A DNA stretch of 64,000 nt from Gordius albopunctatus. Its lineage: Eukaryota. Location of the stretch: assembly GCA_964276515.1 (NCBI GenBank), contig OZ193909.1:17112001-17176000 (forward strand), in the 5' to 3' direction. The notes beneath the pieces were generated by a model. That model saw only the letters and a list, made by a program, of their open reading frames with translations, was not told the origin of the DNA and searched no databases. Shown here piece by piece: positions 10,254 to 63,220 of the stretch. The position numbers and the translations under genes are program-made. Each line of letters begins with the position of its first letter. Within the stretch, counting starts at the first letter, position 1.

Positions 10254-10310
10254 ATTAATAACACTACCTACGACGGTCTCAAGTCCGTGTGCATAAAGTG
10301 GAGGGTTGGC
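10254..10310 (+). ncRNA. Twister ribozyme (P1 type) at the RTE 5' end
   Basis: UAACACUAC-CUACG-ACGG-UCUCAAGU-CCGU-GUGCAUAA-AGUG-GAGGG fits the twister core: P2 CACU/AGUG, P4 ACGG/CCGU, two pseudoknots. Confidence 0.8.
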
Positions 10311-12648
10311 GTCAGGTCGGAAACCGACTATAAAAATCAACTCCAAAACTATGATAGTTTCAAACAGGATTTTACAAGAAAAGGCTAGGGCGTCCTCCAC
10401 AAACGACGCGCACTGCATACCCCGCCCGTGCAATGTGAAAAATACACTAGGGTTACTGCCCAACTCCCAATGAAGGCGGTTAAGGAAACTAGTTGTGGAA
10501 AGAATGCGAATTACGTTCTGGAATGTGGAAACGTTGGCGGGGAAGAGCATTGAGGCCGCACAGATGCTAAAAAGAAGAAAGGTACACATCGCCTGCCTAC
10601 AAGAGACGAGGTGGAACGGAACGAAAGCTCGGGAATTAGGAGAAGGATACAAGCTTTTCTACAGTGGGTCATCAAATCGTAGAAACGGGGTCGGTATCGT
10701 TCTAAGTGAATCGTTCAAGGACAAGGTGGCCGAAGTCAAGCGTTGTTCCGACAGGCTAATGTGGGTGAAGATTGCAGATCAAGGGGCCTCCTAACCGTTA
10801 TGTGCGCGTATGCCCCCCAAATTGGATGTTTGGAATCAGAGAAAGACATATTCTTCGATTCATTGGAAAAGGAATAGGACAGGAAGAAAAGCTAATTATT
10901 GGGGCAGATTTCAACGCTCACGTTGGGAAAGATCGCCTCGGGTATGAACGCAATCATGGAGGCTATGGGCATGGTCTGAAGAACAAATAAGGGGAAAAAC
11001 TTCTCCAAGTATCCCAAGCATATGACATGGCGATCGTTAACGCCACCTTATTCAAGCCGAAAGAAGTGATGGAAAGGTGGAAAGGATATTTTAAGAAACT
11101 TATGAATATTGCAAACGACAAGGATTCCCTTCCCGAAATTGAGCCAAATATAAATATGGTCGAACTCTTTCAGGAGGATGAAGTTAGAACACAAATGAAC
11201 AAGATGCAAAAAGGAAAAGCAAATGGTCCAGATGGAATATCTATGGAAGCGTTGCTCGGATGTCGTAAAGAAGGAGTCACCGCCATGATGAACCTCCTTA
11301 ACAAGATATTGGTAGAAGAGCGAATCCCTAATCAATGGAGAGCAAGCACGATTATACCATTATTTAAAAGCAAAGGAGACCCTCAGGACTGCGGCAATTA
11401 CAGAGGTATCAAGCTAACTTGCCACTCCTTGAAGCTTTTGGAAAGGATCTTAGTAACAAGGCTGAAAAGCGTGGTGGAAATATCGGCTAATCAATTCAGA
11501 TTCGTGGCCGGCAAATCCACAATCGACCCAATCTTCGCTCTGAGACAAATGATGGATAAGTATGGTGAAAAGAGGAAAGACCTACATATGGTTTTTATCG
11601 ACTTGGAGAAAGCTTATGACACGGTCCCACGCGACTTAATATGGTGGTGCCTGAGGAAACAAAATATCCCTGACGCATATATACGGCTTATGAAAAATAT
11701 TTATGAAGCTTCAAACTCTTGCGTTAGGACGACAGTTGGAGACTCTAAACCTTTTCGGGTTAATATTGGATTACATCAAGGCTCTGCTTTAAGTCCCTTT
11801 TTATTTAATATAATTATAGACACGATAACGAGGGACGTTCAAAAGCCTTCGCCATGGTGTATGCTATATGCCGATGATATAGTACTATGCGAGGAAACAA
11901 GAGAGAAAGTATTCGAAGAAGCCGAAAAATGGTCAAAGTTCTTAGATGGATATGGTTTAAAGGTCAACGATAGAAAAACGGTATACATGGAAATGAACGG
12001 TACAGGCACCTCATCGCTGGATGACCATCTAAAGTACCCAAAAGTAGACAGGTTCACATACCTCGGCTCGATGCTACATCAAGAGGGAGGTTGCACAACA
12101 GAAGTCAATACCCGGATCCAAAAAGGATGGCTTAAATGGCGAAGTATATCCGGTATAATGTGTGACAAGAAAATGCCAATATGGTTGAAGAGCAAAGCTT
12201 ACAAATCCATCGTAAGACCGTTGTTACTCTATGGAAGTGAAACATGGGCATTAAACACCACGGAATTAAAGCTATTACAAGCCACAGAGATGAGAATGAT
12301 ACGGTGGAGCTTGGGGTATACTAAGCTCGACCATATGATGACGAATGACTTTTTCATGACAAAAATGGGTATTCAATCTATGGCGGACATGATTAACGAA
12401 AATCGGCTAAGGTGGTATGGTCATATACTAAGGAGGGATACGGATGACGTAAATCGAAAAGTACTGGACATGGAGGTACCGGGGAAGAGAGGAAGAGGAC
12501 GACCCCGTGTCACGTGGAAAGGGCAAGTCGATAAAGTTATGGAAACTAAAGAGATTAGTCAAAACATGGCACTCACCCGGTCAAGATGGAAGAAACTTAT
12601 CAAAACAAACCCCACCAATGTGGGACCAAATAACTGATAAAGAAGAAG
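10260..12648 (+). mobile_element. RTE-clade non-LTR retrotransposon, 5'-complete but internally deleted and frameshifted
   Basis: APE endonuclease (WNVETL, CLQETR, GADFNAHVG) and RT (FIDLEKAYD, GLHQGSALSP, YADD); GAAGAAG tail; 18-19 bp TSD ATAGTAAATACGATTAAT(A) starting at 10242 and 12649. Confidence 0.96.
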
Positions 12649-14320: not shown

Positions 14321-15648
14321 TAGAGTTGTTAAATCGCTTGCTTTAGCAATGCTAACTATGTGGTATGCTCGAGCACGAACAATAGTTGTGTAATATGCTA
14401 GCTTAGCACAACGGGTGCTAGGCTATGCAATAGTTTTAACAATAAGATGTAAAAATGCTAGAGAGGTTAGTCGAAGCAGCCAAATCTGTTAAAAATTTAG
14501 CCGAAGCTCGAGCAGTAAATTCAAGCAGATAGTAGATTGAATTGCTATTTGTTAAAATTTAGTAACTTAGAATATTTGCTCATGGTATGTTATAAAGTTA
14601 TTATATTATAGTTTTATAAGAAATTAAGCATGTTGAGCATAAAATGATGGATTGTACGATAATAAGATGAGATTATATATTTGATTTTTTACCCTACATG
14701 TAATTATATATATTTTGAGTTTTTAGGTATAAATATTTTGTATAGGGGATTAAATATATATGGGGTCATGGGCGTAGGCAGGGGGGGCCTAGGCAAATTT
14801 CAATACCGAGACCTCTTTTTTTTTGCTCTCAGGAAATTTTTTTTGGGATAGTCAAGGATTGTTATCTGACCCCCCCTAAATATTTTTTAATTCATGGAAT
14901 TGTTCAAAAATAGTAATTTTGCTATCATTATTTAAAAAATATCTATCCAATATATTATTTTCATGGTAATCGATTTCATGGAATCCAGAGAAATCTTCCA
15001 AATCATTACAAGGTTCCTTTGAACTAGTTGTAGCTATTTTTCCGTGTTTTTTTTAATTAAAGGTGCTGATTTTAGAGAAAGAAATCATTTTTTTGTTAAT
15101 GCACAAGAGGCATTTCGCTTTTAAGTTGACTTTATCATCTGTATCATCTATAAGCTTGAAATATTTTTTGTATGGTGGAAATGGAAATTTGGTTTCTTCT
15201 TCTATAATCTCTACTAAATCCATAAAAAACCTATTTTTTATTACATATCTATAAAATGAATATTAATATGAATTACAAGATTTTTCAAAAAAATTTCTAT
15301 ATAAAACGGAAAAACTGATGTTAAATGGTTCAAATGATGAGATGAAAAATCAGTATAAAACTCGGCTCAACATTTAATAATGAATAAATTTAAATAAAAT
15401 TATATTTTCATTAAATTTTAATTAACAAATATTATTAATATTTAAAAAATAATATAATTTATATATTAAATTTAAAGCCCTAAAAGGAGCTACTCCCGCT
15501 CCTCATTTTTTTTGGAAAATGGAGCGGCGCTCAAACCGCATAATCTATATTTATGATGCGATTTAAAATTTTTTTTGAAATTTTGACTTACTTGTTTTTC
15601 ACCTTTGAAATTAAGATTTTTAAAAGTTTAGCGGTCGAACAGATGACT
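14321..15648. mobile_element. Older left-end fragment of the TAGAGTTGTTAAA hAT family, interrupted by other sequence at about 14768-15537
   Basis: 14321-14767 aligns with 52767-53215; 15538-15648 is one unit of the ~122-bp repeat without the RTE insertion. Confidence 0.82.
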
Positions 15649-38018: not shown

Positions 38019-41000
38019 ATGAAATTGCAAGTAGCATCTCCTAACGTAAATACTGTCAAGGACAAATGGGATGACATACTAACCTTCATGAAAATCCACA
38101 ATAAAGATGTCCTCCTTCTACAGCAAACCAGAATCAAAGAAGATGGCTTACATAAGTTTCATGGTTTCACATCATATAATTCATGTGCAAAAACAGAGAA
38201 TGGTGCAGGAGTCTCCATAGTAGTTAAGAACTCACTCCATATTATCTCCCACAACCCCGTCTCCCCGAGAATCATTACATTAACCCTTGAGATTAACAAA
38301 AACAGACGGCTAACCTTTATTAACATTTATTGCCCTACCTCAAACTATCAAAAAAAATCGTTGAATTTTTTCAAAACATCCACCATCAAATATCCTATCT
38401 CCCCAAAAAAGACATTAAAATCCTTATAGGAGACTTCAACGCTTCTGTGGAATCATCCCCAAACTTCCACCCCTCATGTGTGAGACCTAATAACCTTGGC
38501 CACACCAACAGAAATGGCAAAATCCTGATAAAGTGGTGTAATGAACACAAATGGTCCATTAGATCAAATTTCTCCACATTAAACCCCAACGAACTAGCGA
38601 CCTACAAGAGGTCTGATAGGGCCACAGGCTCTCAAATTGACCACATCCTTACCGAATTCAAATACAAAAAGATTGTTAGAAATTACGCATCCTACCCTAA
38701 CCCTTACATATCATCGGACCACCACACGTTAGAGGCAGATATCTATACCACGTCAGCATCGCTACATAACACCTCAAAAAAGTCTCGCGTAACTCCATTG
38801 CCACGCCCAAATGACACTGAGAGTATTAAATTATTCAACGAGAACCTGCAAAAGAGAATTGAGTCAACACCACAACCAATTAACATGACCATCGAAGAAC
38901 AAAGCGCTTGGTTAACAGAAAGCCTAATCGCATCATCGCGCAACTTAAAACCCACCCCTACCATAACAAATATCTCTCCTTTGAATCCCTTCGCCTTATG
39001 GATGAGAGTGGCGCTATAACCAGGTCATCAGCCAAATTTAAGAAAGAACGTCTTAAAGCAATCAACAAGCTTATAAAGGCCAGTGTGCAACGCGACAAGA
39101 GGATATACGCGGCGGATATAATAAAAGAAGCAGAGGTTGCAAGTAGAAAAAAACAATACTCACAATCTTTATAAAAAGGTTAAATCCCTAACTAAAGGCT
39201 TGAACCTAAGCTACAACCTGCATCCGATTGCAACCTCCAACCCCAGACCCAAAGATTCCATAGCCCAACTGGAATCATGGGAAAAACGCTTCCGCGACAT
39301 TCTTTCCTTCCCGACCCCATTCCCATATACAGATATTTATGCAGGATTTATCAAGGGATTCAAAGGTCCTGGCGAGGCCAACATAGATTATCAACCCCCT
39401 AGTGGTTACGAGATCATGCGAACAATAAAAAAACTTAGGAACCACAAAGCTACCGACAAAGAAGGAATCTCAGCCGAACTTTACAAGGCCAATCCAAAAA
39501 CCTCTTCCCAGCTCCTACAACCATTATTCGAAAGGATATGGACGAACGAACAACTGCCCGAATCATGGTCAAGCAGTGTTCTGATAAAAATCTTCAAAAA
39601 AGGCAACCACCTTGACCCCAATAACTACAGAGGTATAACATTAATTAATGCCACCTCAAAAATCTTCATAAACATACTCTACTACAGAGTTAAATCGCAC
39701 ATGGTCAATAAAATAAATCACAAACAAGCAGGCTTCAGAAGCTCGCGCACAACAACCGGAACTTGATTGATAAATCGAATTGCGCGAAAAGCTCCCTGTA
39801 CATGCTCTTCCTTGACATCTCCAAAGCATTTGACTCGATCCAACAATTATATATATCGGAAACCCTTTGTCTACTGGCACTACCAACAAAAATCATAAGA
39901 CTTATTTTCATGCTTTATGAAAACCAAAAACTCTTTGTCATACATTACCAACTGCTCTCAAATCCCATCATTCCAAACTCAGGTGTTACGCAGGGGTGCC
40001 GCTTATCCCCTCTGATCTTCATCTCGGTTTTGAATCTAATACTGAAGAGATCGTTATTCCCAAGAGATGGCTTGCTGTTGAGTAACAACACGAGGATCTC
40101 ATATCTTCTGTTTGCCGATGATGTCTGCTTAATTTCCGACTTATTTTCCAATATTCTCAAGAAGCAGCCCGAGGAGGCCTGATCATCAATGCAGGAAAAT
40201 CCACACTACTTGCCCTTAACCCGCAACCCAATGCGAGTATCATGAGCCATACTTCTATTATCAAACCCTCGGACTAAGTTAAATACCTTGGTGTTTCTCT
40301 GTGCGCGGACAAGCACACCACGCTAGATGTCTCAGAAAAAATAACAAAGGCTACCAACAGGTTCAAACAATGCAACAAAATTTGGAACTGCAAAATGTTC
40401 TCAAGAAACACCAAACTTCACCTATACAAAACCTTAATTCTCCCAGTACTCTTTTACGGCTGCGAGACCTGGAATCTCAAGGCAAGCTCAATCAAAAACA
40501 TACAAAACAAAATGTTTAGAATTGTCTGGTAGAATCAAATCTTCTACCCAAGAATAATTAGGAATCAGAATTTATGGTTTCTATGCAAACTTCCCCCGGT
40601 CAAATACATGATTTTGGTTAAAAAGGGGAACTTTCTAGCACACCAGTTTCGGAGAGGCTCCCCCAACCTCTGCATATCCACTTTACTGTGGAGACCCCCC
40701 CCCCAATTAGGATACCGGAAATGCCGTGGGACCTGGACCAAGAGAATTAAACGGCATAGTTTTTCAACTCGGCCAACTAGATGCGATCTTCTTAGACAGG
40801 AACGCTTGGAAAAAGTTTTTCACCAACCAGCTAGCCTACAAATTTCCTGCCAACACACCAAAAAATTGATTACCATCCATAAACCACCATGCCCTCTTCC
40901 TGCAGTCTGACAATATTCAAGCAGGTACCAGTGTGCAATCAATCGAGACTAACTATCGCTTATTTCCAGTAATTGCCGTAGATGGTATGTAAATTTTTTT

Positions 41001-46330: not shown

Positions 46331-46544
46331 TATTTATTTATTAAAGGATTTGCTAGTTGTAATTAAAGTTACAATTTATAAAAAAAACAAGCTTATTGTA
46401 TTAGTTAAATAAAAATTTATAATATATTATAGGCTCAATCAGGGATGCAGAAATTTTGGTTGATGTAGTGGAACGAATACAAAGCAGTCAGCAAAGTAAT
46501 AGTTATATTTTACATAATAAATTTTATTACCTTTTTTAGATATC

Positions 46545-48012
46545 ATGCGCTTTATTCCATCTGGCAAAGGTTACCTTCTTTACTTTGGTGGTTATCTGTA
46601 TTACAAAATAAGAAGAGCCCCGTCTACTACCTACTATCGGTGTAGGACGAGGAGTTGCCCTGGCAAGGCAAAAATTACAACCTCCCCCGAAGTTACTTAC
46701 GGGCATAACCATGAGCAATCTAGGGAGGAATATGAGTTTTTAATTACTGTCAGGGATTTGAAGGAGGCAGTTTTGGCAGAACCCAGGGAGAAACTGAGGA
46801 CGCTATACCATAAGATCATTGCTAGACGGTTACGCGAAGTACCTGACCTGGTATTGTATCCAAAGGCGACCCCTACATTCAAATCAATAAGGCAAACGCT
46901 CCAAAGAGTAAATCCTAAGAGAGTGAAGGACCTGGACAACAATAGGGAGATTATCTTAGATCCGGAGCATCGCTTCACCGAAAACGGTGAGAGATTCTTG
47001 CTCTGGAACTGGGATAATCGACTTATGCTTTTCGGGACACCCACGTCTCTAAAGATTATGTGTACATCCGGTAATCTTTACTCGGATGGCACATATTATG
47101 TATGCCCGCCATCGTTTAGCCAAGTAATAGCAGTTTTTAATATTAAATTTTAATTTATAGGTCTATACAATCCACACTTTTTACCGGGGACACATGATTC
47201 CCGTCGTGTATGCCCTGTTACTCGAAAAATCCTGCGAAACCTATAAAATGGTTTTGAACAAATTAAAGGAGTTGTGCCTTGAGCATAATTTTGTGTTACA
47301 ACCAAATTATGTTCAGGTTCACTTTGAAATGGCTAGTATACAAGCCCTCCGAGAATGTTTTCCAGGCGTTTTAGTGAAAGGTTTTTAATTTATTAAATAA
47401 CATATATTTAATTTAGGATGTTTATTCCATTTTGTCCAAGCTATTTTTCGAAGACTTGGGCATGAGGGAATACGGTCCGAGTACAATGAAAATCAACATT
47501 TCAAAAAATTGGTACGGCGCGCTTTAGCCCTTCCATTTTTAAAAGAACACGATGTGCTAGATGTTTTTCGATTATGTGCTTCTGACACTCTCGTTCGCTC
47601 TAACGAGAAAAGTGAAGACTTTTTTCAATATATACACCGAACCTGGGTCTGGTCAACCGCCACTTTTCCATATGAGATTTGGCAAAGGTTTAATGCTGGG
47701 GGACCCCGTACAAACAATCATTTGGATGGGTTCCATAACAGAATTAAATGCTTTGTTGGCCGGGCCCACCCCGTTATATATGATTTCATTGAATGCCTAC
47801 GTAAACAACAAACCATTACGGAAATTAATTTATTGCATATTTCTCAAGGTAAGCAGGTGTTTGCTACCAGCAAGGAATATCGCAATATTAACACCAATAT
47901 AAATAGATTGGTAAATCAATATAGCCTTAACGAAATTGATGTATATGAATTTATTGATAATATTTCTGTATATATGTATTTACAATCGCATGAATTAATT
48001 GTTGACACATAA
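46545..48012 (+). mobile_element. FLYWCH-MULE (Mutator-like) transposase gene; introns 47124-47160 and 47381-47416; probably extends upstream through further small exons
   Basis: FLYWCH (GYLY..YYRC...C...HNH), YSDGTY, QVYTIH, PVVYALL, GCLFHFVQA, RTNN motifs. Removing two GT-AG introns gives one continuous frame. Confidence 0.9.
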
Positions 48013-50214: not shown

Positions 50215-52766
50215 TTTTTCCATCAGAAATAATTAAAGGATAATATTATTGAACCAATAGAGTATTCTGAGTGGGCCACCCCGTTAGTTCCCGTTAAGAA
50301 AGATGACGGTAGTATACGGGTGTGTGCTGACTATAGAATTACTATTAATAAACATGTGATTGATGTTAAATACCCCCTACCCAGAATAGAGATGGTTTTA
50401 GCTAATTTAAAAAGTTCTAAATTCTTTTCGAAGATAGACCTTAGGAATGCATACCTTCAGTTACGTGTAGATGATAAGACGTCTAAAATTTTAACAATAA
50501 ACACCGATAGAGGTTTGTTTGCTTTTAAACGATTACCGTTCGGTTTAAGTGTGTCGACGCCAATTTTTCAACGAGCAATGGCTTCTATTTTTAATAATTT
50601 AGATGGCATATTTTTCTATTTAGATGATATTTTGGTTACGGGTTCAACGCAAGCCGAGCATGACTCACGACTAATAAATGTTTTATCCTTAATTTAAAGT
50701 AAGAATTTACGTGTATCAGCGTATAAATGCATTTTTTGCACAACTGAAATAACTTATTTGGGTCATATAATAGCCGATGGCTGGGTAAAACCTAATTTAA
50801 TTAAAATTAAGGCTATAAAAAATATGCAGAGGCCTAATAATAAAAAGGAGCTATCCTCATTTTTAGGGCTTATGAATTATTATAGCAGATTTATTGATAA
50901 TTACACGAAGTTTTCGGGTCCGATAATGTTTTGTTTAAATGGGAAGATAAAGAAGATCAATGTTTTAATTATTTAAAAGATATTTTGTTAAAAGACTCTA
51001 TCTTAAAATGCTTTGATCCGGTTAAAGAGCACATCTTAAATGTTGATGCATCCAACACGGGTATAGGAGGAGCTTTATGTCAGGTCGAGGGCGGAGTTGA
51101 GTATCCTGTAATTTACTTTTCGCGTAAACTTAATGGGGCGGAACGCAATTACTCCGTGATTGAAAAAGAAGCGCTTGCTATAACTTTTGGTTTAAAACGA
51201 TGTAGGGAGTATTTAATTGGCAAGACCTTTACAGTTTTTACCGATCACAAGCCTTTAATCAATTTATCTCAAAAAATTAATACGGAATACTTAATGTCCC
51301 CGCGTTTGCAGAGGTGGTTAATAATGCTGGGTAATTTTTCTTTAACATTAAAATATCGTCAGGGAAAAAATAATTGTTTAGCAGACGTTTTGTCGCGTAT
51401 GAGTGATAATAACGATAACGCTGACGACGATATTGGGACCACGCAAACTAGTCACCATTACATTAATGTTTTAAAGATTGTTGAGTTCAACACCATTGTT
51501 AAGAGCTCTAAGACCGACCCCGATTTTATTAAAATGAAAGATATTTTATTGGGTAATGAGGATTTATTTGGAGGATAACGTAGTTAAACGAAATGAAAAA
51601 ATTGTCATACCTACCGAGCTACGTGAGGATGTTTTAAAGGTACTTCACGAAGGGCATGCAGGTATTACAAAGATGAAAGACATAGCTAGAAGGTATGTCT
51701 GGTGGCCTAAAATGACGAAAGGTAGTGAAAGACAGGTTCGACAATGTGAATGGTGCAAGGCAAAGACAGCCATGCCTCGCAGAGACAAAGCGTCGAGATG
51801 GACACGTCCTAATGAAGCTTGGGATCGCATACACATTGATTTTTTCGAACTTGATAAAAAACGCTATTTTTTAATGGTAGATGCTTTTTCGGGTTGGACT
51901 GAATTTAGAAAGGTTTTTAATATGTCTACCCTGGTAACAATTAATTTTTTAAAGGATTTAATTAGTTCGTATGGTTTTCCAATGTGCGTAGTAACCGATA
52001 ATGGTAGATCTTTTACTAGCGCCGATTTTAATAAATTTTATGAACAGTGGAAAATAAGAGATGTATTAACACCACCATATCATCCAAGTTCTAATGGACA
52101 AGTTGAGAGATATGTTGGTATAGTTAAAAAATGGATTAGGTTGTCGCAGTCTGGTAAGGACAGTACTTGGCTCTATAGATTATATCACAACATGTCTCCC
52201 AGGTATCCAGGTCGTTTACCAGTAGGCAATGAGTTTCTTAAACGTAAATTAAGATATCCGCCTGATTTTTTATGGGAATCGGATAAGGTTAATAATACTT
52301 TAACAACTACCCCTCGCTTTAAGATAGATTAGCTAGTGTGGTCACGTAACTATGCAGGTGAACCCATGTGGGTTTTGGCGCGGGTTATGGATCATATTGG
52401 TCATAAGATTTATAAAGTAAGACTTTTAGAGAGTCAGATAGAGGAAGTAAGACATTTGGAGCAATTATTGATTGCACGATGTCTAATTAATATTTTTATA
52501 TTTAGATGCGATTACAGTTATCCTGGTGCTCGGTTGAGGTGGTGGTGAGAAGAACTGCAGTCATTCGCCCTCCAGGCCCTATCCACTTGACAGTGATAAT
52601 CGGGGTGGATGGGCTCCCTAGGATAGTGGCGGTGTTCGAACCACCACCGTCGATTATGCCGGGTGTACCTAGTCCGAATGTGGGTCCGTCCATGGGAGAC
52701 CTGTGGGCAGACCCCGTAGGAAGTGTAATGGGTGCCTTCGTTGGCACGTGATGCCTATGTGTCCAG
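50215..52766 (+). mobile_element. Degenerate Ty3/Gypsy pol (RT, RNase H, integrase), 5'-truncated
   Basis: SEWATPLV, CADYR, IDLRNAY, LPFG, YLDD, VDAS, EKEALA, TDHKPL, ADVLSR, LHEGHAG, HIDF, VTDNG, SNGQVER; domain order RT-RH-IN; stops and frameshifts. Confidence 0.95.
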
Positions 52767-53273
52767 TAGAGTTGTTAAATTGCTAACTTTAGCAATGCTA
52801 ACTATGTGCTATGCTCGAGCACGAACAGTAGCTGGGTAATATGCTAGTTTAGCACAATGAGTGCTAACTGTTCGGTGCGTTCGTTTTAACAGTAGCACAT
52901 AAAAAATGCTCGAGAAGTTAGTCGAAGCAGCCAAATCTGTTAAAAAATTTAGCAGGAGCTCGAGCAGATAGTAGATTGAATTGCTTTTGTTAAACTTTTT
53001 TAGTTACTAACAAAATTTGCTCATGGTATATTATAAAGTTGTTATATTATAGTTTTATAAGAAATTAAGCATGTTGAGCATAAAATGATGGATTACACGA
53101 TAATAAGATGAGATTGTATATTTGATTTTTTACCCTACATGTAATTATATACACTTTGAGTTTTTAGGTATAAATATTTTGTACAGGTGGTTAAATTAAT
53201 ATATAGATGGGGTAAATGTCATAATCTATATTTATGATGCGATTTAAATTTATTTTTCAAATTGTGACTCACT

Positions 53274-56200
53274 CCTTTATCGTGTTGAAAATCCCACAGA
53301 CGTGGGGTACGTTTTCAGCAGCCTCTTCCATCTGAGTCGTGTGAATGCCATCCCAATTTCCATCTGTTTGACGTCCATATCCTTTTCGACCAGTCGTTTC
53401 CAGGTGGCACGTGGTCTGCCCCTTCCTCTTCTTCCAGGCACGTCCATCTCCAGCGTTCGGCGTGTGAAATCGTCTTCGTCTCTTCGTAATACATGGCCGT
53501 ACCACCGCAGTCGATTTTCTCTTAAGAAGTCCTTCGTCGCTTGTATACCCATCTTTGTCATCAAGGATTCGTTCGTCATGCGATCCAGCTTGGTGTAGCC
53601 TAAGCTCCATCGCACCATTCTCATTTCCGTGACTTGCAAGAGTTTCTCCTCCGCGCTGGTTACAGCCCATGTTTCGCTCCCGTAAAGCAAGACCGGTCGC
53701 ACGATGGTTTTGTACGCCTTGCTTTTCAACCAAATTGGTATCTTTTTGTCACACATGACACCGGAGATGCTGCGCCACTTGAGCCATACTTTCTTGATCC
53801 GAGAATGGACTTCGGCGGTACATCCTCCCTCTTGATGTAATAGCGAGCCAAGATATGTGAACTTATCAACCTCCGTGTACCTTGGACCTTCAATTTTGTG
53901 CATTTGCGGACTACCGCCCATCGTTTGCATGTAAACCGTTTTCTTCTCGCTGACCTTTAACCCGAATTCCGAGAAACGTTCTGACCATTTTTTCGCCTGA
54001 TGAAAAACCCCTTCTCTTGTTTCATCGCATAGGACAATATCGTCGGCATATAGCATAGTCCAAGGGGCTGGCTTGTGCAAGTCCTTTGTTATTGTATCCA
54101 TAATTAGATTAAACAAGAATGGGCTTAACGCTGATCCTTGATGTAGTCCGATCATTATTCGGAAGGGTTTCGTTACTCCTACTGTAGTCCTAACAGATGC
54201 AACCGCTCCATTATACATTTCCTTGATAAGTCGAACATATCCTTCGGGTATATTTCTGGCTCTAAGGGACCACCATATTAAGTCTCTCGGAACCGTATCG
54301 TAGGCCTTTTCTAAATCGATGAAGACCATGTGTAATTTCTTTCTTATGACGCCATATTTTTTCATCGTCTGCTTCAACGCAAAGATTGGGTCCATCGTTG
54401 ATTTACCGGCCACAAATCCAAACTGATTGGGCGAGAGACAAACTTCGTCATTGAGCCTTTTCACTAGCACCCTTTCTAGTAGTTTTAGTGAGTGGCAGGT
54501 CAACTTGATACCTCTAAAGTTGCCACATTCCTGCGCGTCTCCTTTACCTTTGTATATGGGTATGATCGTACTTTCCCTCCATTGGTCAGGGATACGACTC
54601 TCATACAGCATAGCGTTAAATAGGCCTGTCATTATGTCGATTCCTTCTCCTTTGCACCCAAGCCAAGCTTCGATCGGTAGATCATCGGGACCTAGCGCTT
54701 TCCCTTTCCGCATCTTCGTTAGTTGTGCTCCTATTTCATAAGCCTGAAATGGTAAAACCAAGTTCGAGTTCGGTTCCACCCTCTCTAGCGGTCTTCTATC
54801 ATTTGTTTTGTTCATCATATTTTGGAAATAATCTTTCCATCTTTTGATGACTTCCTTCGGTTTGCACAACGTTCGTCCCTCTTCGCTTTTAATGACTTTA
54901 AGTGTCCCGACATCTCGACTTTTTTTCTCCCTGATCTTTGCGAGTTTATACATGACTATGTCGCCGCCCTTGGTATCGAGCTTGTTTGCCATCTCGGTGT
55001 AAGCGTTGTTCTTCGCTATCGCGACCGCTATCTTAGCTTTGCGTTTCGCTTCACGATATGCCTCGTAGTCTTCTCCTTTCTTCGTTTTGTACCATCGTAG
55101 GTACAACGCCTTCTTTTCTTCTATAACCTCTTTGACCGAGTCATTCCACCACCATAGTTCACGCTTGTGAGCTCTGCCGCCCTTAGTTCGTCCCAATATT
55201 TGTAAGGCCGTTTCCTTTAGAACATTTGCAACGGTGCCCCACCTTTTGTTAATGTCGCCCTCCAAGCCTGCAACCTTCAAGAGCGGAGTTGCTCGAGTCT
55301 GAAACATTTCATTTGCATGATCATCCTTAAGCTTTTCGTACTTTGTCCTTGGTGTGTAGACTTTTCTCCTTACGGGAAAAATCTTTCTTGCTATATCGAG
55401 GACAACTGGCCGATGTTGTTTGGCGATTTCTTCCCCCGGTATAACCTTGCAATCTTTAACTTGCCACAAATTTATGCGCTTCACTAATATGTAGTCGACC
55501 TGTGTAAGGTGATTTCCACTACTGTACGTCGCTAAATGTTCGGTACGCTTCTGAAAGAAGGTATTCACAATGGCCATATCGTAAGCTTGCGCCATCTGTA
55601 GTAACTTCTCTCCCTCTTTATTTTTCACTCCATAGCCATGCCCGCCGTAATTTCGTTCGTACACGCCCCTTTCTTTCCCAACGTGCCCATTAAAGTCTGC
55701 TCCGATGATGAGATTCTCGTCAGGCTTCACGTAGCGTATTTCTTCTTTGAGCTTCTCATAGAATTCGTCCTTCTCGTTTTCGGAACATCCAACCTGGGGC
55801 GAATACGCACAAATAACATTGACAAGGCCGCCTTGATCCGCCAGCTTTATGCACATCAATCTATCCGAGCATCGTTTGACTTCGACTACCTTGTCCTTAA
55901 AGGAATCGCTAAGCACTATACCGACCCCGTTCTTCCGTGATGGGGAACCCGAGTAGTATAGCTTGTAACCATCTCCTAGCTCCCTGGCTTTTGTTCCATG
56001 CCACCGTGTTTCTTGTAGACACGCTATGTGTATCCTTCGTCTTTTTAGCATCTGCGCAACCTCGATGCTCTTCCCCGTCAGCGTGCCAACATTCCAGCTA
56101 GCCACTCTTGTCCGTTCGACAACTAGGTTCCTTAACCGCCTTTGTTGTGAGTGAGGCGGTGACCCTTGTATACTTTTCACATTGCACGGGTGGATGATGC

Positions 56201-56356
56201 AATGCGCGTCGTTTGGGGAGGACGCCCTAGCATTCTGGTATAAGTTCGTATTTGAAGCTGCCATGGTGTTTGGAGTTGCTTTTTACAGCCGGCTTCCGAC
56301 CTGACGCCAACCCTCCACTTTTTTCACACGGACTTGGGACCGTCGTTGGTAGTGTT
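53274..56356 (-). mobile_element. Full-length RTE LINE (3083 bp), left copy
   Basis: 15-bp TSD AAATTGTGACTCACT (53259-53273, 56357-56371); single intact ORF. Confidence 0.97.
53277..56264 (-). CDS. RTE ORF: APE endonuclease + reverse transcriptase (995 aa)
   Basis: WNVGTL, CLQETR, GADFNGHVG, QVDYIL, QHR; FIDLEKAYD, GLHQGSALSP, YADD, LLYGSETW. Confidence 0.97.
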   Translation of the reverse strand: MAASNTNLYQNARASSPNDAHCIIHPCNVKSIQGSPPHSQQRRLRNLVVERTRVASWNVGTLTGKSIEVAQMLKRRRIHIACLQETRWHGTKARELGDGYKLYYSGSPSRKNGVGIVLSDSFKDKVVEVKRCSDRLMCIKLADQGGLVNVICAYSPQVGCSENEKDEFYEKLKEEIRYVKPDENLIIGADFNGHVGKERGVYERNYGGHGYGVKNKEGEKLLQMAQAYDMAIVNTFFQKRTEHLATYSSGNHLTQVDYILVKRINLWQVKDCKVIPGEEIAKQHRPVVLDIARKIFPVRRKVYTPRTKYEKLKDDHANEMFQTRATPLLKVAGLEGDINKRWGTVANVLKETALQILGRTKGGRAHKRELWWWNDSVKEVIEEKKALYLRWYKTKKGEDYEAYREAKRKAKIAVAIAKNNAYTEMANKLDTKGGDIVMYKLAKIREKKSRDVGTLKVIKSEEGRTLCKPKEVIKRWKDYFQNMMNKTNDRRPLERVEPNSNLVLPFQAYEIGAQLTKMRKGKALGPDDLPIEAWLGCKGEGIDIMTGLFNAMLYESRIPDQWRESTIIPIYKGKGDAQECGNFRGIKLTCHSLKLLERVLVKRLNDEVCLSPNQFGFVAGKSTMDPIFALKQTMKKYGVIRKKLHMVFIDLEKAYDTVPRDLIWWSLRARNIPEGYVRLIKEMYNGAVASVRTTVGVTKPFRIMIGLHQGSALSPFLFNLIMDTITKDLHKPAPWTMLYADDIVLCDETREGVFHQAKKWSERFSEFGLKVSEKKTVYMQTMGGSPQMHKIEGPRYTEVDKFTYLGSLLHQEGGCTAEVHSRIKKVWLKWRSISGVMCDKKIPIWLKSKAYKTIVRPVLLYGSETWAVTSAEEKLLQVTEMRMVRWSLGYTKLDRMTNESLMTKMGIQATKDFLRENRLRWYGHVLRRDEDDFTRRTLEMDVPGRRGRGRPRATWKRLVEKDMDVKQMEIGMAFTRLRWKRLLKTYPTSVGFSTR

Positions 56357-56362
56357 AAATTG
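56306..56362 (-). ncRNA. Twister ribozyme at the RTE 5' end (left copy)
   Basis: Reverse complement of 59627-59683. Confidence 0.85.
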
Positions 56363-57890
56363 TGACTCACTAAGAGTCTAAAAAATGTTTTTTTACCTTT
56401 GGAATTAAGATTTTTAAAAGTTTAGCAGTCGCCCTGGTGACAAATGTCATAATCCATATTTATGATGCGATTTAAATTTTTTTTTAAATTCTGACTCACT
56501 AAGAGCTTAAAAAATGTTTTTCACCTTTGAAATTAAGATTTTTAAAAGTTTATCGGTCGCCCAGGTGACAAATGTCATAATCCATATTTATGATGCGATT
56601 TAAAATTTTTTTTAAATTCTGACTCACTAAGAGCTTAAAAAATGCTTTTCACCTTTGAAATTAAGATTTTTAAAAGTTTAGCGGTCACCCAGGTGACAAA
56701 TATCATAATCCATATTTATGATGCGATTTAAATTTTTTTTGAAATTCTGAACAACTAAGAGCTTAAAAAATGTTTTCACTATTGAAATTAAGATTTTTAA
56801 AAGTTTAGCGGTCGCCCAGGTGACAAATATATTAATCTATTTATTATCCGATTTAAATTTTTTTTTTAAATTCTGACTCATTAAGAGCTTAAAAAATGCT
56901 TTTCACTTTTGAAATTAAGATTTTTAAAAGTTTAGCGGTCGCCCAGGTGAAAAATGTCATAATCCATATTTATGATGCGATTTAAAATTTTTTTTTAAAT
57001 TCTGACTCACTAAGAGCTTAAAAAATGCTTTTCACCTTTGAAATTAAGATTTTTAAAATTTTAGCGGTCACCCAGGTGACAAATGTCATAATCCATATTT
57101 ATGATGCGATTTAAATTTTTTTTTTTAATTCTGACTCACCAAGAGCTTAAAAAATGCTTTTCACCTTTGAAATTAAGATTTTTAAAAGTTTAGCGGTCAC
57201 CCAGGTGACAAATCTCATAATCCATATTTATGATGCGATTTAAAATTTTTTTTAAATTCTGACTCACTAAGAGCTTAAAAAATGCTTTTCACCTTTGAAA
57301 TTAAGATTTTTAAAATTTTAGCAGTCCAACAGGTGACAAATATATTAATCTATTTATGATCCGATTTAAATTTTTTTTTTAAATTCCGACTCATTAAGAG
57401 CTCAAAAAATGCTTTTCACCTTTGAAATTAAGATTTTTAAAAGTTTAGCGGTCGCCCAGGTGACAAATGTCATAATCCATATTTATGATGCGATTTAAAT
57501 TTTTTTTTAAATTCTGACTCACTAAGAGCTTAAAAAATGCTTTTCACCTTTGAAATTAAGATTTTTAAAAGTTTAGCGGTCGCCCAGGTGACTAATGTCA
57601 TAATCCATATTTATGATGCGATTTAAATTTTTTTTTAAATTCTGACTCACTAAGAGCTTAAAAAATGCTTTTCACCTTTGAAATTAAGATTTTTAAAAGT
57701 TTAGCGGTCGCCCAGGTGACAAATGTCATAATCCATATTTATGATGCGATTTAAATTTTTTTTTAAATTTTGACTCACTAAGAGCTTAAAAAATGCTTTT
57801 CACCTTTGAAATTAAGATTTTTAAAATTTTAGCGGTCCAACAGGTGACAAATATATTAATCTATTTATGATCCGATTTAAAATTTTTTAA
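56357..57890. repeat. ~122-bp tandem repeat array (about 12-13 units) inside the hAT left arm
   Basis: Unit GTGACAAATGTCATAATCCATATTTATGATGCGATTTAAA...CTGACTCACTAAGAGCTTAAAAAATGCTTTTCACCTTTGAAATTAAGATTTTTAAAAGTTTAGCGGTCGCCCAG. Confidence 0.95.
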
Positions 57891-58031
57891 TTTTAACTTA
57901 TAGATGGCTAAAATAATACTAAAAATCGTCGTGGATATAATATTTACAAATTTTATTAAGTCTAATAATAAGTTTATGAAATCAATGATAAACATATAAT
58001 AGATGAAATTATAACATATTTAGGCTGTAAA

Positions 58032-58991
58032 ACATCCCTCTGGATGTTTCCACACGTTGGAATAGCACCTACAATATGCTATCCATTATAAATAAAGTAA
58101 TATAAAATATTTTGAAATTTATAAACAAATTAGAATATTATGACAATAAATTCTACTGATCCCTCCAAGGGAATTACATTATCCAATGAAGAAAAGGATA
58201 TTATGAACCAAATAGAAAATTTTTTATCTCCCTTTTATATCGTAACCAATTTAATTAGTTATGACTCAAAGGCCACCGTGGGTATGGCCTTAATTTATTT
58301 AAAAGACCTTAGCGCAAAAATGGAAGAAACGCTAAGGTCTAATGAAGCGCTATTTCATGATGCTTGTGAAGTCATGAGGGTAAAATTTGTGAAATACATA
58401 CCAGAATATGAGCGCTTTAATTTTTATGTAGCGGGATACCTCGATCCAAGAATTAAAAGAAGGTATTTACCTTCAACGATAAATACTACGGGTACCTCTA
58501 TTTTAATCATTTAATAATTTTTAATATTTTATTAGAAAATTATGAAAAGCTGGTGAATTTACATAATATTTATAAATCAAATGAAAGATTTCGTTTCCAT
58601 GATGGGATTACTCGTAAAGAAGACGATTACACCTCAGCCATTTTGAATCGTTTAAGGAGGTAAATAAATTTTTATACAATATTTTAATGACTCATTTAGT
58701 CCAACAGAGTCCTGTGTTGATTATGCTGGCGAAATGAGTGAATATGAAAATGATATTCCTCTAGCAGCGAATACAGTATTAGAATGGTGGAGGATAAATG
58801 AATCACGGTTCCCGGCATTGGGAAAAATGGCCAGAGATTTTTTGGCACAGTCCACCACCTCCGTTCCAAGTGAACGGATGTTTTCCATCGCCGGAAATAT
58901 TTTAACTGCGAGGCGTAATAGGTTATCACCTACTACAATTCGCGATATGATGTGCCTGAAATCATGGCGAAATATAAATTTTACAGCCTAA
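58032..58991 (+). pseudogene. 5'-truncated, intron-containing hAT (Ac/ZBED-like) transposase
   Basis: LDVSTRWNSTYNML, FLSPFY, YLDPRIK, LEWWRINESRFPALGKMARDFLA, TSVPSERMFS, RRNRLSP; short AT-rich introns near 58097, 58492 and 58660. Confidence 0.92.
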
Positions 58992-59124
58992 ATATGTTAT
59001 GATTTCATCTATTATATGTTTATCATTGATTTCACAAACTTATTATTAGACTTAATAAAATTTGTAAATATTATATCCATGACGATTTTTAGTATTGTTT
59101 TAGCCATCTATAAGTTTATATTAA

Positions 59125-59632
59125 AGAATTTTAAATCGCATCATAAATATGGATTATGACATTTGTCACCTGGGCGACCGCTAAACTTTTAAAAATCTTA
59201 ATTTCAAAGGTGAAAACATTTTTTAAGCTCTTAGTTGTTCAGAATTTCAAAAAAAATTTAAATCGCATCATAAATATGGATTATGATATTTGTCACCTGG
59301 GTGACCGCTAAACTTTTAAAAATCTTAATTTCAAAGGTGAAAAGCATTTTTTAAGCTCTTAGTGAGTCAGAATTTAAAAAAAATTTTAAATCGCATCATA
59401 AATATGGATTATGACATTTGTCACCTGGGCGACCGATAAACTTTTAAAAATCTTAATTTCAAAGGTGAAAAACATTTTTTAAGCTCTTAGTGAGTCAGAA
59501 TTTAAAAAAAAATTTAAATCGCATCATAAATATGGATTATGACATTTGTCACCAGGGCGACTGCTAAACTTTTAAAAATCTTAATTCCAAAGGTAAAAAA
59601 ACATTTTTTAGACTCTTAGTGAGTCACAATTT
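59125..59632. repeat. ~122-bp tandem repeat array (about 4 units), inverted relative to 56357-57890
   Basis: Reverse complement of the same unit, sharing diagnostic variants with the first four left-arm units. Confidence 0.95.
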
Positions 59633-59683
59633 AACACTACCAACGACGGTCCCAAGTCCGTGTGAAAAAAGTGGAGGGTTGGC
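59627..59683 (+). ncRNA. Twister ribozyme at the RTE 5' end (right copy)
   Basis: U^AACACUAC-CAACG-ACGG-UCCCAAGU-CCGU-GUGAAAAA-AGUG-GAGGG parallels the rice twister as I recall it (UAACACUGCCAAUGCCGGUCCCAAGCCCGGAUAAAAGUGGAGGG), with compensatory changes. Confidence 0.87.
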
Positions 59684-62600
59684 GTCAGGTCGGAAGCCGG
59701 CTGTAAAAAGCAACTCCAAACACCATGGCAGCTTCAAATACGAACTTATACCAGAATGCTAGGGCGTCCTCCCCAAACGACGCGCATTGCATCATCCACC
59801 CGTGCAATGTGAAAAGTATACAAGGGTCACCGCCTCACTCACAACAAAGGCGGTTAAGGAACCTAGTTGTCGAACGGACAAGAGTGGCTAGCTGGAATGT
59901 TGGCACGCTGACGGGGAAGAGCATCGAGGTTGCGCAGATGCTAAAAAGACGAAGGATACACATAGCGTGTCTACAAGAAACACGGTGGCATGGAACAAAA
60001 GCCAGGGAGCTAGGAGATGGTTACAAGCTATACTACTCGGGTTCCCCATCACGGAAGAACGGGGTCGGTATAGTGCTTAGCGATTCCTTTAAGGACAAGG
60101 TAGTCGAAGTCAAACGATGCTCGGATAGATTGATGTGCATAAAGCTGGCGGATCAAGGCGGCCTTGTCAATGTTATTTGTGCGTATTCGCCCCAGGTTGG
60201 ATGTTCCGAAAACGAGAAGGACGAATTCTATGAGAAGCTCAAAGAAGAAATACGCTACGTGAAGCCTGACGAGAATCTCATCATCGGAGCAGACTTTAAT
60301 GGGCACGTTGGGAAAGAAAGGGGCGTGTACGAACGAAATTACGGCGGGCATGGCTATGGAGTGAAAAATAAAGAGGGAGAGAAGTTACTACAGATGGCGC
60401 AAGCTTACGATATGGCCATTGTGAATACCTTCTTTCAGAAGCGTACCGAACATTTAGCGACGTACAGTAGTGGAAATCACCTTACACAGGTCGACTACAT
60501 ATTAGTGAAGCGCATAAATTTGTGGCAAGTTAAAGATTGCAAGGTTATACCGGGGGAAGAAATCGCCAAACAACATCGGCCAGTTGTCCTCGATATAGCA
60601 AGAAAGATTTTTCCCGTAAGGAGAAAAGTCTACACACCAAGGACAAAGTACGAAAAGCTTAAGGATGATCATGCAAATGAAATGTTTCAGACTCGAGCAA
60701 CTCCGCTCTTGAAGGTTGCAGGCTTGGAGGGCGACATTAACAAAAGGTGGGGCACCGTTGCAAATGTTCTAAAGGAAACGGCCTTACAAATATTGGGACG
60801 AACTAAGGGCGGCAGAGCTCACAAGCGTGAACTATGGTGGTGGAATGACTCGGTCAAAGAGGTTATAGAAGAAAAGAAGGCGTTGTACCTACGATGGTAC
60901 AAAACGAAGAAAGGAGAAGACTACGAGGCATATCGTGAAGCGAAACGCAAAGCTAAGATAGCGGTCGCGATAGCGAAGAACAACGCTTACACCGAGATGG
61001 CAAACAAGCTCGATACCAAGGGCGGCGACATAGTCATGTATAAACTCGCAAAGATCAGGGAGAAAAAAAGTCGAGATGTCGGGACACTTAAAGTCATTAA
61101 AAGCGAAGAGGGACGAACGTTGTGCAAACCGAAGGAAGTCATCAAAAGATGGAAAGATTATTTCCAAAATATGATGAACAAAACAAATGATAGAAGACCG
61201 CTAGAGAGGGTGGAACCGAACTCGAACTTGGTTTTACCATTTCAGGCTTATGAAATAGGAGCACAACTAACGAAGATGCGGAAAGGGAAAGCGCTAGGTC
61301 CCGATGATCTACCGATCGAAGCTTGGCTTGGGTGCAAAGGAGAAGGAATCGACATAATGACAGGCCTATTTAACGCTATGCTGTATGAGAGTCGTATCCC
61401 TGACCAATGGAGGGAAAGTACGATCATACCCATATACAAAGGTAAAGGAGACGCGCAGGAATGTGGCAACTTTAGAGGTATCAAGTTGACCTGCCACTCA
61501 CTAAAACTACTAGAAAGGGTGCTAGTGAAAAGGCTCAATGACGAAGTTTGTCTCTCGCCCAATCAGTTTGGATTTGTGGCCGGTAAATCAACGATGGACC
61601 CAATCTTTGCGTTGAAGCAGACGATGAAAAAATATGGCGTCATAAGAAAGAAATTACACATGGTCTTCATCGATTTAGAAAAGGCCTACGATACGGTTCC
61701 GAGAGACTTAATATGGTGGTCCCTTAGAGCCAGAAATATACCCGAAGGATATGTTCGACTTATCAAGGAAATGTATAATGGAGCGGTTGCATCTGTTAGG
61801 ACTACAGTAGGAGTAACGAAACCCTTCCGAATAATGATCGGACTACATCAAGGATCAGCGTTAAGCCCATTCTTGTTTAATCTAATTATGGATACAATAA
61901 CAAAGGACTTGCACAAGCCAGCCCCTTGGACTATGCTATATGCCGACGATATTGTCCTATGCGATGAAACAAGAGAAGGGGTTTTTCATCAGGCGAAAAA
62001 ATGGTCAGAACGTTTCTCGGAATTCGGGTTAAAGGTCAGCGAGAAGAAAACGGTTTACATGCAAACGATGGGCGGTAGTCCGCAAATGCACAAAATTGAA
62101 GGTCCAAGGTACACGGAGGTTGATAAGTTCACATATCTTGGCTCGCTATTACATCAAGAGGGAGGATGTACCGCCGAAGTCCATTCTCGGATCAAGAAAG
62201 CATGGCTCAAGTGGCGCAGCATCTCCGGTGTCATGTGTGACAAAAAGATACCAATTTGGTTGAAAAGCAAGGCGTACAAAACCATCGTGCGACCGGTCTT
62301 GCTTTACGGGAGCGAAACATGGGCTGTAACCAGCGCGGAGGAGAAACTCTTGCAAGTCACGGAAATGAGAATGGTGCGATGGAGCTTAGGCTACACCAAG
62401 CTGGATCGCATGACGAACGAATCCTTGATGACAAAGATGGGTATACAAGCGACGAAGGACTTCTTAAGAGAAAATCGACTGCGGTGGTACGGCCATGTAT
62501 TACGAAGAGACGAAGACGATGTCACACGCCGAACGCTGGAGATGGACGTGCCTGGAAGAAGAGGAAGGGGCAGACCACGTGCCACCTGGAAACGACTGGT

Positions 62601-62715
62601 CGAAAAGGATATGGACGTCAAACAGATGGAAATTGGGATGGCATTCACACGACTCAGATGGAAGAGGCTGCTGAAAACGTACCCCACGTCTGTGGGATTT
62701 TCAACACGATAAAGG
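59633..62715 (+). mobile_element. Full-length RTE LINE (3083 bp), right copy
   Basis: 15-bp TSD AGTGAGTCACAATTT (59618-59632, 62716-62730); single intact ORF. Confidence 0.97.
59725..62712 (+). CDS. RTE ORF: APE endonuclease + reverse transcriptase (995 aa)
   Basis: Same motifs as the left copy; differs at 2 residues (KKAW vs KKVW, DDVT vs DDFT). Confidence 0.97.
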   Translation: MAASNTNLYQNARASSPNDAHCIIHPCNVKSIQGSPPHSQQRRLRNLVVERTRVASWNVGTLTGKSIEVAQMLKRRRIHIACLQETRWHGTKARELGDGYKLYYSGSPSRKNGVGIVLSDSFKDKVVEVKRCSDRLMCIKLADQGGLVNVICAYSPQVGCSENEKDEFYEKLKEEIRYVKPDENLIIGADFNGHVGKERGVYERNYGGHGYGVKNKEGEKLLQMAQAYDMAIVNTFFQKRTEHLATYSSGNHLTQVDYILVKRINLWQVKDCKVIPGEEIAKQHRPVVLDIARKIFPVRRKVYTPRTKYEKLKDDHANEMFQTRATPLLKVAGLEGDINKRWGTVANVLKETALQILGRTKGGRAHKRELWWWNDSVKEVIEEKKALYLRWYKTKKGEDYEAYREAKRKAKIAVAIAKNNAYTEMANKLDTKGGDIVMYKLAKIREKKSRDVGTLKVIKSEEGRTLCKPKEVIKRWKDYFQNMMNKTNDRRPLERVEPNSNLVLPFQAYEIGAQLTKMRKGKALGPDDLPIEAWLGCKGEGIDIMTGLFNAMLYESRIPDQWRESTIIPIYKGKGDAQECGNFRGIKLTCHSLKLLERVLVKRLNDEVCLSPNQFGFVAGKSTMDPIFALKQTMKKYGVIRKKLHMVFIDLEKAYDTVPRDLIWWSLRARNIPEGYVRLIKEMYNGAVASVRTTVGVTKPFRIMIGLHQGSALSPFLFNLIMDTITKDLHKPAPWTMLYADDIVLCDETREGVFHQAKKWSERFSEFGLKVSEKKTVYMQTMGGSPQMHKIEGPRYTEVDKFTYLGSLLHQEGGCTAEVHSRIKKAWLKWRSISGVMCDKKIPIWLKSKAYKTIVRPVLLYGSETWAVTSAEEKLLQVTEMRMVRWSLGYTKLDRMTNESLMTKMGIQATKDFLRENRLRWYGHVLRRDEDDVTRRTLEMDVPGRRGRGRPRATWKRLVEKDMDVKQMEIGMAFTRLRWKRLLKTYPTSVGFSTR

Positions 62716-63220
62716 AGTGAGTCACAATTTGAAAAATAAATTTAAATCGCATCATAAATATAGATTATGACATTTACCCCATCTATATATTAATTTAACC
62801 ACCTGTACAAAATATTTATACCTAAAAACTCAAAGTGTATATAATTACATGTAGGGTAAAAAATCAAATATACAATCTCATCTTATTATCGTGTAATCCA
62901 TCATTTTATGCTCAACATGCTTAATTTCTTATAAAACTATAATATAACAACTTTATAATATACCATGAGCAAATTTTGTTAGTAACTAAAAAAGTTTAAC
63001 AAAAGCAATTCAATCTACTATCTGCTCGAGCTCCTGCTAAATTTTTTAACAGATTTGGCTGCTTCGACTAACTTCTCGAGCATTTTTTATGTGCTACTGT
63101 TAAAACTAACGCACCGAACAGTTAGCACTCATTGTGCTAAACTAGCATATTACCCAGCTACTGTTCGTGCTCGCGTTTTTAGTTGAAGCTGCTTAGCAAT
63201 TTAACAACTATAGTGTCCAG

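What the first reader, a model, noticed from the sequence alone, without database searches (positions are those of the whole stretch)
59618..59683. RTE 5' end is a twister ribozyme and the insertion boundary coincides with the cleavage site
Seen: the element starts AACACUAC immediately after the TSD, whose last base is T. The core has P2 CACU/AGUG, P4 ACGG/CCGU, loop UCCCAAGU and GAGGG. Relative to the rice twister there are two compensatory changes (P4 C-G to A-U; pseudoknot GC/GC to AC/GU). Established: twisters cleave U^A in UAA, and twister-headed RTEs are known (Schistosoma Perere-3). Inference: these promoterless LINEs are released from read-through transcripts by self-cleavage, which defines the 5' end.
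Basis: partly seen in the sequence, partly recalled or inferred. Interest (0 to 1): 0.8.

Follow-up and report, generated by a model that had tools for sequence, protein, structure and literature searches.

The report
Twister ribozyme heading intact RTE retrotransposon
An intact jumping gene begins exactly where a built-in self-cutting RNA (a twister ribozyme) is predicted to cut, so it likely frees itself from host transcripts this way; the trick is already published for a blood-fluke relative, so this is a further example rather than a new principle.

Summary
Observation confirmed. Rfam twister-P1 matches 59628-59682 (39.7 bits, E 3e-5 per window; gathering score 67.2, which plant twisters here also miss). 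All core elements and both compensatory changes are present. The element (59633-62715; one intact 996-codon APE+RT frame; 15-bp TSD) starts at the A just 3' of the canonical scissile bond. A second, 74%-identical insertion at 10260 starts at the same base. In 3 of 4 sequencing runs laid, 37-42 contigs each switch to unrelated flanks exactly at 59633. The ribozyme's P1 5' strand is not in the element: it comes from the target and does not pair in register here. Most likely the RNA is cut out of read-through transcripts, which fixes the 5' end; cleavage, expression and absence of a promoter are untested. Liu et al. 2021 describe the same layout, including TSD-supplied P1, for Schistosoma Perere-3, and this scan noted it before in six decayed short RTE derivatives on other DNA. 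New member of a known kind; differences: P3-less core, AC/GU pseudoknot, autonomous copy. Weak side lead: a hairpin plus UAAAA right after the ribozyme recurs across RTE families.

The parts
59618..59632 (+). 5' target-site duplication (15 bp), host DNA from a 128-bp tandem-repeat unit; supplies U(-1) and any P1 5' strand
   Evidence: empty-site contigs continue with G after 59632 (table 7)
59633..59678 (+). P3-less type-P1 twister core: A59633 (predicted general acid, first base of element), P2, pseudoknot AC/GU (59639-40 with 59656-57), P4, L4, GAGGG (G59674 predicted general base; numbering mapped from recalled rice structure)
   Evidence: P2 and P4 pair probability 0.99 in native context
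59679..59682 (+). UUGG, the element-borne 3' strand of P1; same four letters as in Perere-3 T-variants
   Evidence: PMC8501958 Table 1
59684..59709 (+). hairpin-capable stretch followed by UAAAA, conserved in position across RTE families; register and role uncertain
59725..62712 (+). single intact ORF, APE endonuclease + reverse transcriptase, no C-terminal CCHC knuckle; ATG 92 nt after the element start
62716..62730 (+). 3' target-site duplication
53274..56356 (-). near-identical copy of the same insertion (2 differences over 3085 aligned bases, same TSD and flanks) in the other arm of an inverted-repeat element; not independent
10260..12648 (+). independent insertion of a related family (70-74% identical, internally deleted); own 18-19-bp TSD; starts at the same twister A; its target supplies a 4-bp in-register P1
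4017..5516 (-). decayed third relative; twister core damaged at its 5' end and in L4/L1

Best explanation
The first 46 bases of this intact RTE-type retrotransposon form a minimal twister ribozyme core that likely cuts the element's RNA out of longer host transcripts just before its first base, which would explain why full-length copies begin at that base. Steps: (1, shown) core, ORF, TSD and junction are as described; (2, shown) the junction base is the same in an independent insertion and in dozens of contigs with unrelated flanks; (3, established for the family) twisters cut N^AA and leave a 5'-OH-AA product, P1 being dispensable; (4, inferred) host read-through transcription, self-cleavage, translation of the uncapped RNA, target-primed reverse transcription up to the cut end, so that each new copy has lost its P1 5' strand and borrows whatever the new target offers; (5, inferred) copies differ in cutting efficiency with their flank, and this copy would work with a shifted or absent P1.
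For: Rfam hit and intact invariant positions. Two both-sided pair changes, one in the pseudoknot. Core 42 of 46 identical between the two families against 440 of 586 in the first 600 coding bases, binomial P 0.005. TSD ends exactly at 59632. Loose ends 'before 59633' in 42, 37 and 42 contigs of runs X1, X3, X4 with flank agreement only 0.46-0.47, which also shows that the -1 T is not part of the element. Two further RTE relatives at 45-46% protein identity carry twisters (55 and 64 bits) upstream of the ORF. PMC8501958 sections 19-21: cleavage in vitro and in yeast, any base at -1, TSD next to the cut. PMC11662667 passages: P1 imperfections do not lower cleavage.
Against: No cleavage or RNA evidence for this family. 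Score is 27.5 bits under Rfam gathering. No in-register P1 at this copy (probability 0.0; 1 of 300 random flanks gives one); the predicted native fold pairs target UUU with GGG of GAGGG, which would compete with a pseudoknot (the program cannot fold pseudoknots). Folding z-scores are not significant. The loose-end table shows 24 rows and hides 885, so the full spread of 5' ends is not seen; run X2 lists 3 contigs starting at 59643 instead; X1 and X3 are one study and X1 may be the source sample. Four of six fetched relatives that cover the ORF start gave no twister hit, among them L036 at 40% identity.
Confidence: 0.85

Rival explanations
1. The family relies on the ribozyme, but this particular copy is catalytically poor or dead because its target flank gives no proper P1 and may mispair with GAGGG; only copies that land beside a suitable flank act as donors.
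For: In-register P1 probability 0.0 here, 0.58 at copy 10260, above 0.5 in 1 of 300 random flanks; Liu et al. propose exactly this flank dependence.
Against: PMC11662667 finds no effect of P1 imperfections over thousands of natural twisters; P2 and P4 still form at 0.99; a shifted CAA/UUG helix is available.
Confidence: 0.3
2. The 5' end is set by an internal promoter whose start site falls on A59633; the twister fold is a relic or is kept only as a translation or stability element.
For: Other LINE clades use internal promoters (recalled); no RNA data here exclude it; L036 keeps the downstream UTR motif without a detectable twister.
Against: A start site has no reason to fall on the scissile bond in two families here and in Perere-3; catalytic and pseudoknot positions are kept with compensatory change; reviews describe RTEs as lacking their own promoters.
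Confidence: 0.08
3. Chance resemblance, or reverse transcriptase merely stalls at the far end of a stable structure.
For: Score below gathering; folding z-scores near zero.
Against: 0 descriptor hits in 100 resampled windows; Rfam E 3e-5; stalling would truncate on the 3' side of the structure, not copy all of it to the exact first base (inference).
Confidence: 0.02

Closest known systems
Twister 'T-variant' ribozymes at the 5' end of Perere-3 (RTE-type LINE), Schistosoma mansoni (Liu et al. 2021, PMC8501958; read: abstract, sections 17, 18 part 1 of 2, 19-22, supplement passages)
   Same: Single APE+RT ORF; twister at the 5' end; element starts AA; TSD directly abuts the cleavage site and supplies the P1 5' strand; element-borne P1 strand UUGG; short UTR; microsatellite-type 3' end.
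   Different: No P3 stem here (Perere-3 has one); pseudoknot AC/GU and P4 A-U instead of GC/GC and C-G (the loop variant has 0 occurrences in their supplement); family tail (AAG)n instead of GTAA repeats; activity shown there, untested here.
Truncated twisters at the 5' end of RTE-superfamily retrotransposons (de la Pena et al. 2020 review, PMC7761336; passages only; cited there as 'in preparation')
   Same: States the general association and the 5'-processing role.
   Different: No data shown in the passage; I found no follow-up paper in three searches.
Rice-type minimal type-P1 twister (Rfam RF03160; plant-like loci L001, L018)
   Same: P3-less core, 5-nt linker with C-G pair, same L4 and GAGGG.
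   Different: Those carry their own perfect P1 and no APE/RT within the fetched DNA (0 of 30 loci hit the window protein).
HDV-like ribozymes at the 5' end of R2, RTE and baggins elements (PMC6765202 passages; Ruminski 2011 not held)
   Same: Self-cleavage frees the element from a co-transcript and defines its 5' end.
   Different: Other ribozyme class, cutting at its own 5' edge, so no target-supplied stem is involved (recalled).

Membership tests
Twister ribozyme, type P1 (RF03160) | Covariance-model match | tested here: met
   E 2.1e-7 local, 3.4e-5 window-wide; 39.7 bits, under gathering 67.2; plant-type examples with full P1 score 60.0
Twister ribozyme, type P1 (RF03160) | P2 and P4 stems, L4 loop, NAA and GAGGG strands of L1 with catalytic A and G | tested here: met
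Twister ribozyme, type P1 (RF03160) | Two pseudoknots can pair | tested here: met
   AC/GU with both-sided change; CC of L4 and GG of GAGGG present by sequence
Twister ribozyme, type P1 (RF03160) | In-register P1 stem | tested here: not met
   probability 0.0 at this copy, 0.58 at copy 10260; reported dispensable and target-supplied in T-variants, so this places it among the T-variants
Twister ribozyme, type P1 (RF03160) | Self-cleavage at N^A | not testable with these tools
   needs an in vitro assay
RTE-clade non-LTR retrotransposon | About 3.1-3.3 kb, single ORF with APE and RT, no ORF1 (features as in PMC5850137 passages) | tested here: met
   3083 bp; one ORF; PF03372 + PF00078; 92-nt leader
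RTE-clade non-LTR retrotransposon | 3' short tandem repeats instead of poly(A); TSD of about 8-20 bp | tested here: met
   (AAG)n loose ends at 62714 in X1 and X3 and at copy 10260; this copy itself has almost no tail; TSDs 15 and 18-19 bp
RTE-clade non-LTR retrotransposon | RT groups with named RTE references in a tree | not tested
   No named RTE protein was at hand; homologues at 40-46% from nematodes, moths, fish and plants carry only automatic names; L1 and R2 proteins are far weaker matches
Perere-3-type twister-headed RTE | TSD immediately adjacent to the scissile AA | tested here: met
   2 of 2 independent full-5' insertions in the window (one with 1-nt ambiguity)
Perere-3-type twister-headed RTE | Co-transcription from host promoters and cleavage in vivo | not testable with these tools
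   no raw RNA reads available

The most novel reading that the evidence does not exclude
RTE twisters are natively P1-free one-nucleotide-leader ribozymes: a conserved hairpin that starts right after GAGGG and ends at UAAAA (59684-59709; an equivalent, stronger hairpin is visible in the Perere-3 leader) stacks where P1 would be, making cleavage independent of the insertion site. This would overturn the published idea that the target flank licenses donor copies, and give a compact portable 5'-end processor.
Probability: 0.2. Interest if true: 0.55.

Novelty: new member of a known kind. Interest (0 to 1): 0.3.

Why it matters
It extends the twister-headed RTE layout from Schistosoma to an intact, young, high-copy family in another AT-rich genome, with a minimal core and natural covariation in the pseudoknot. 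Because each insertion replaces the P1 5' strand, the family is a natural library for asking whether the target flank decides which copies can act as donors. The principle itself is published.

Tried and rejected
No whole genome is held, so copies could not be tabulated genome-wide; the finer spread of 5' junctions and the guessed-RNA runs remain unexamined. No RNA holder listed. Metagenome scan with a minimal twister pattern: 30 loci, 0 of 30 with an APE/RT match, nearly all plant-like twisters with their own P1. Viral contigs: no relatives; phages none, plasmids one 5'-truncated stray contig. Idea that targets are chosen to complement the P1 strand: rejected, 22% and 76% of 1500 random flanks pair as well as those of the two insertions. 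Copy at 56356 as independent support: rejected (same TSD and flanks). RNAalifold found no consensus for the downstream hairpin on a MAFFT alignment that is out of register; my anchored count of 35 of 36 pairs rests on a pattern I wrote to fit, and other registers fold better in 4 of 6 sequences. No Rfam match of any kind in the L036 leader. First pair count had the pseudoknot mis-indexed and was redone. The sigma-70 promoter scan is meaningless for a eukaryote. L034 and L035 lack their 3' ends, so no TSD could be tested. The supplement of PMC11662667 could not be read: a near-identical core may already have been assayed there.

Full report
Observation. The 15-bp duplication AGTGAGTCACAATTT lies at 59618-59632 and again at 62716-62730, where G follows; contigs of the empty site also continue with G after 59632 (table 7). 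Element-specific sequence therefore starts at A59633. Rfam twister-P1 matches 59628-59682 with 39.7 bits (E 2.1e-7 in 401 bases; 3.4e-5 in the window). This is under the gathering score of 67.2, but two plant-type twisters with a full P1 reach only 60.0, because the model expects a P3 stem. A descriptor that I wrote after seeing the motif finds 3 sites in the window, all at 5' ends of this element group, and 0 in 100 resampled windows. Against 7 of the 30 metagenome twisters, the pseudoknot pair changes G-C to A-U and the first P4 pair C-G to A-U, both on both sides; these are single events shared by related copies. The rice P4-L4 sequence is given in a passage of PMC11662667 and is present in L001 and L018.

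The element. 59633-62715 is 3083 bp with one open frame from ATG 59725 to 62712, holding an APE endonuclease and a reverse transcriptase and no C-terminal CCHC knuckle. Homologues at 40-46% identity come from nematodes, moths, fish and plants and bear only automatic names; solved L1 and R2 proteins match far more weakly. Size, single ORF, (AAG)n tails in other copies and TSD length fit the RTE description in passages of PMC5850137 and PMC6007223; no tree with named RTE references was built. The copy on the minus strand (56356-53274) differs at 2 of 3085 aligned bases and has the same TSD and flanks; both lie in the arms of an inverted-repeat element with an 8-bp outer duplication and a hAT dimerisation fragment in the centre, so it is one insertion seen twice.

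Is the boundary general? An independent, 70-74% identical insertion at 10260 has its own 18-bp TSD (19 with one ambiguous A), starts with the same AACAC and scores 39.1 bits. Its core is identical at 42 of 46 positions, against 440 of 586 in the start of the coding region (P 0.005). Of 22 runs listed, 4 were laid on 59560-62780. In X1, X3 and X4, 42, 37 and 42 contigs have loose ends before 59633 with flank agreement of 0.46-0.47, that is, many unrelated flanks joined at this base; it is the only such listed place inside or next to the ribozyme in those three runs. Because these contigs already differ at -1, the T there is target DNA. Limits: the table shows 24 rows and hides 885; X1 and X3 are one study and X1 may be the source; X2 lists 3 contigs starting at 59643 and one piece starting at 59633; contigs are not counts of insertions. 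Of 46 loci fetched from genome contigs (stray eukaryotic DNA in microbial assemblies), 11 were scanned; 6 of them cover the start of the ORF. The two closest (L034, L035; 45-46%) carry P3-containing twisters of 55 and 64 bits upstream of the ORF, again T then AAC; L036 (40%) and three at 28-31% gave no twister hit.

P1. The element carries only the 3' strand of P1 (UUGG). Here the target gives no in-register P1 (probability 0.0) but a helix shifted by two bases; at 10260 it gives a 4-bp P1 (0.58); 1 of 300 random flanks gives one, while P2 and P4 form with probability above 0.5 in 205 and 263 of 300. The two real flanks pair no better than random ones. Folding energies are not unusual against shuffles, which says little for a pseudoknotted RNA. 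Passages of PMC11662667 report that P1 imperfections do not lower cleavage among 2625 tested candidates; PMC8501958 reports cleavage with any base at -1 and a 5'-AA product. Passages of PMC5408937 name the A at the cut and a conserved G as catalytic candidates; mapping that G to 59674 rests on recalled numbering.

Mechanism. Shown: anatomy, covariation, shared junction base. Established for the family: chemistry and site of twister cleavage. Inferred: host read-through transcription, self-cleavage, translation of the uncapped product (shown for Perere-3 in yeast reporters), and reverse transcription to the cut end. I put this at 0.85. The main open point is whether this copy, lacking P1, is itself a good cutter.

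Known or new. Liu et al. 2021 (PMC8501958; abstract, sections 17, 18 part 1, 19-22 and supplement passages read) describe the same layout for Perere-3, including the TSD that abuts the cut and supplies P1. A passage of PMC7761336 states that truncated, active twisters are conserved at the 5' end of RTE-superfamily elements. Searches for a broader data paper found none in the held library, which lacks most subscription journals; Roth 2014, Kosutic 2015 and Ruminski 2011 were not read. Earlier notes of this scan report six decayed short RTE derivatives with the same junction in other genomes (unchecked AI notes); none matches this sequence or this genome. What differs here is modest: an autonomous intact copy, a P3-less core, and a loop variant absent from Liu's supplement. 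The unreadable supplement of PMC11662667 may hold a similar core.

Side lead. After GAGGG, six leaders (three window copies, L034, L035, L036) share AGG..C..UAAAA..CAAA before the ATG. An anchored hairpin pairs in 35 of 36 cells with some both-sided changes, and the Perere-3 leader in Liu's Supplementary Table 4 shows by eye a strong hairpin at the same place. Against it: RNAalifold found nothing, other registers fold better in 4 of 6 sequences, z-scores are weak, and L036 keeps the motif without a detectable twister, which would suit a separate leader element just as well. I give the P1-substitute reading 0.2.

Verdict. Real, well supported, already known in kind. Interest 0.3.

Noticed in passing
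window 52768-63214: A 10.4-kb foldback-like element: terminal inverted repeats, 8-bp outer duplication GTGTCCAG, arms about 99% identical over 4.1 kb with 128-bp tandem arrays, and a hAT dimerisation-domain fragment (58782-58982, PF05699) in the centre. One RTE insertion is present in both arms, suggesting copying between arms. An assembly artefact is not excluded, though the outer duplication argues against it.
   Followed up: partly
window 59684-59725; L034:358-430, L035:143-215, L036:183-255: Conserved leader motif (hairpin, UAAAA, CAAA, ATG) after the ribozyme in RTE families of 40-46% protein identity; L036 has it without any Rfam ribozyme match upstream, so it may hide another or an unmodelled ribozyme.
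   Followed up: partly
window 59633-62717: The element's words are held by runs under nine coded organism labels and two freshwater metagenomes, four runs holding half or more; close relatives or horizontal spread cannot be told apart here.
   Followed up: no
window 14321-14761: Another copy (85%) of the terminal 440 bp of the foldback-like element.
   Followed up: no
window 38324-40853, 46521-47153, 50233-52332: Fragments of another LINE (APE, RT), a FLYWCH-domain frame, and broken Gypsy-like pol frames (RT, RNase H, integrase).
   Followed up: no
window 31752-31844: A 26-bp-arm inverted repeat with weak miRNA-model hits, probably a MITE-like remnant.
   Followed up: no
L031-L036, L045 and others: Eukaryotic LINE DNA sits in contigs of microbial genome assemblies, one labelled as a complete plasmid (L033); likely contamination.
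   Followed up: no
L001-L030: Plant-like minimal twisters with their own P1 and no nearby RT, often behind G- or GT-rich tracts; L024 is a GC-rich variant with a further compensatory P4 change.
   Followed up: no
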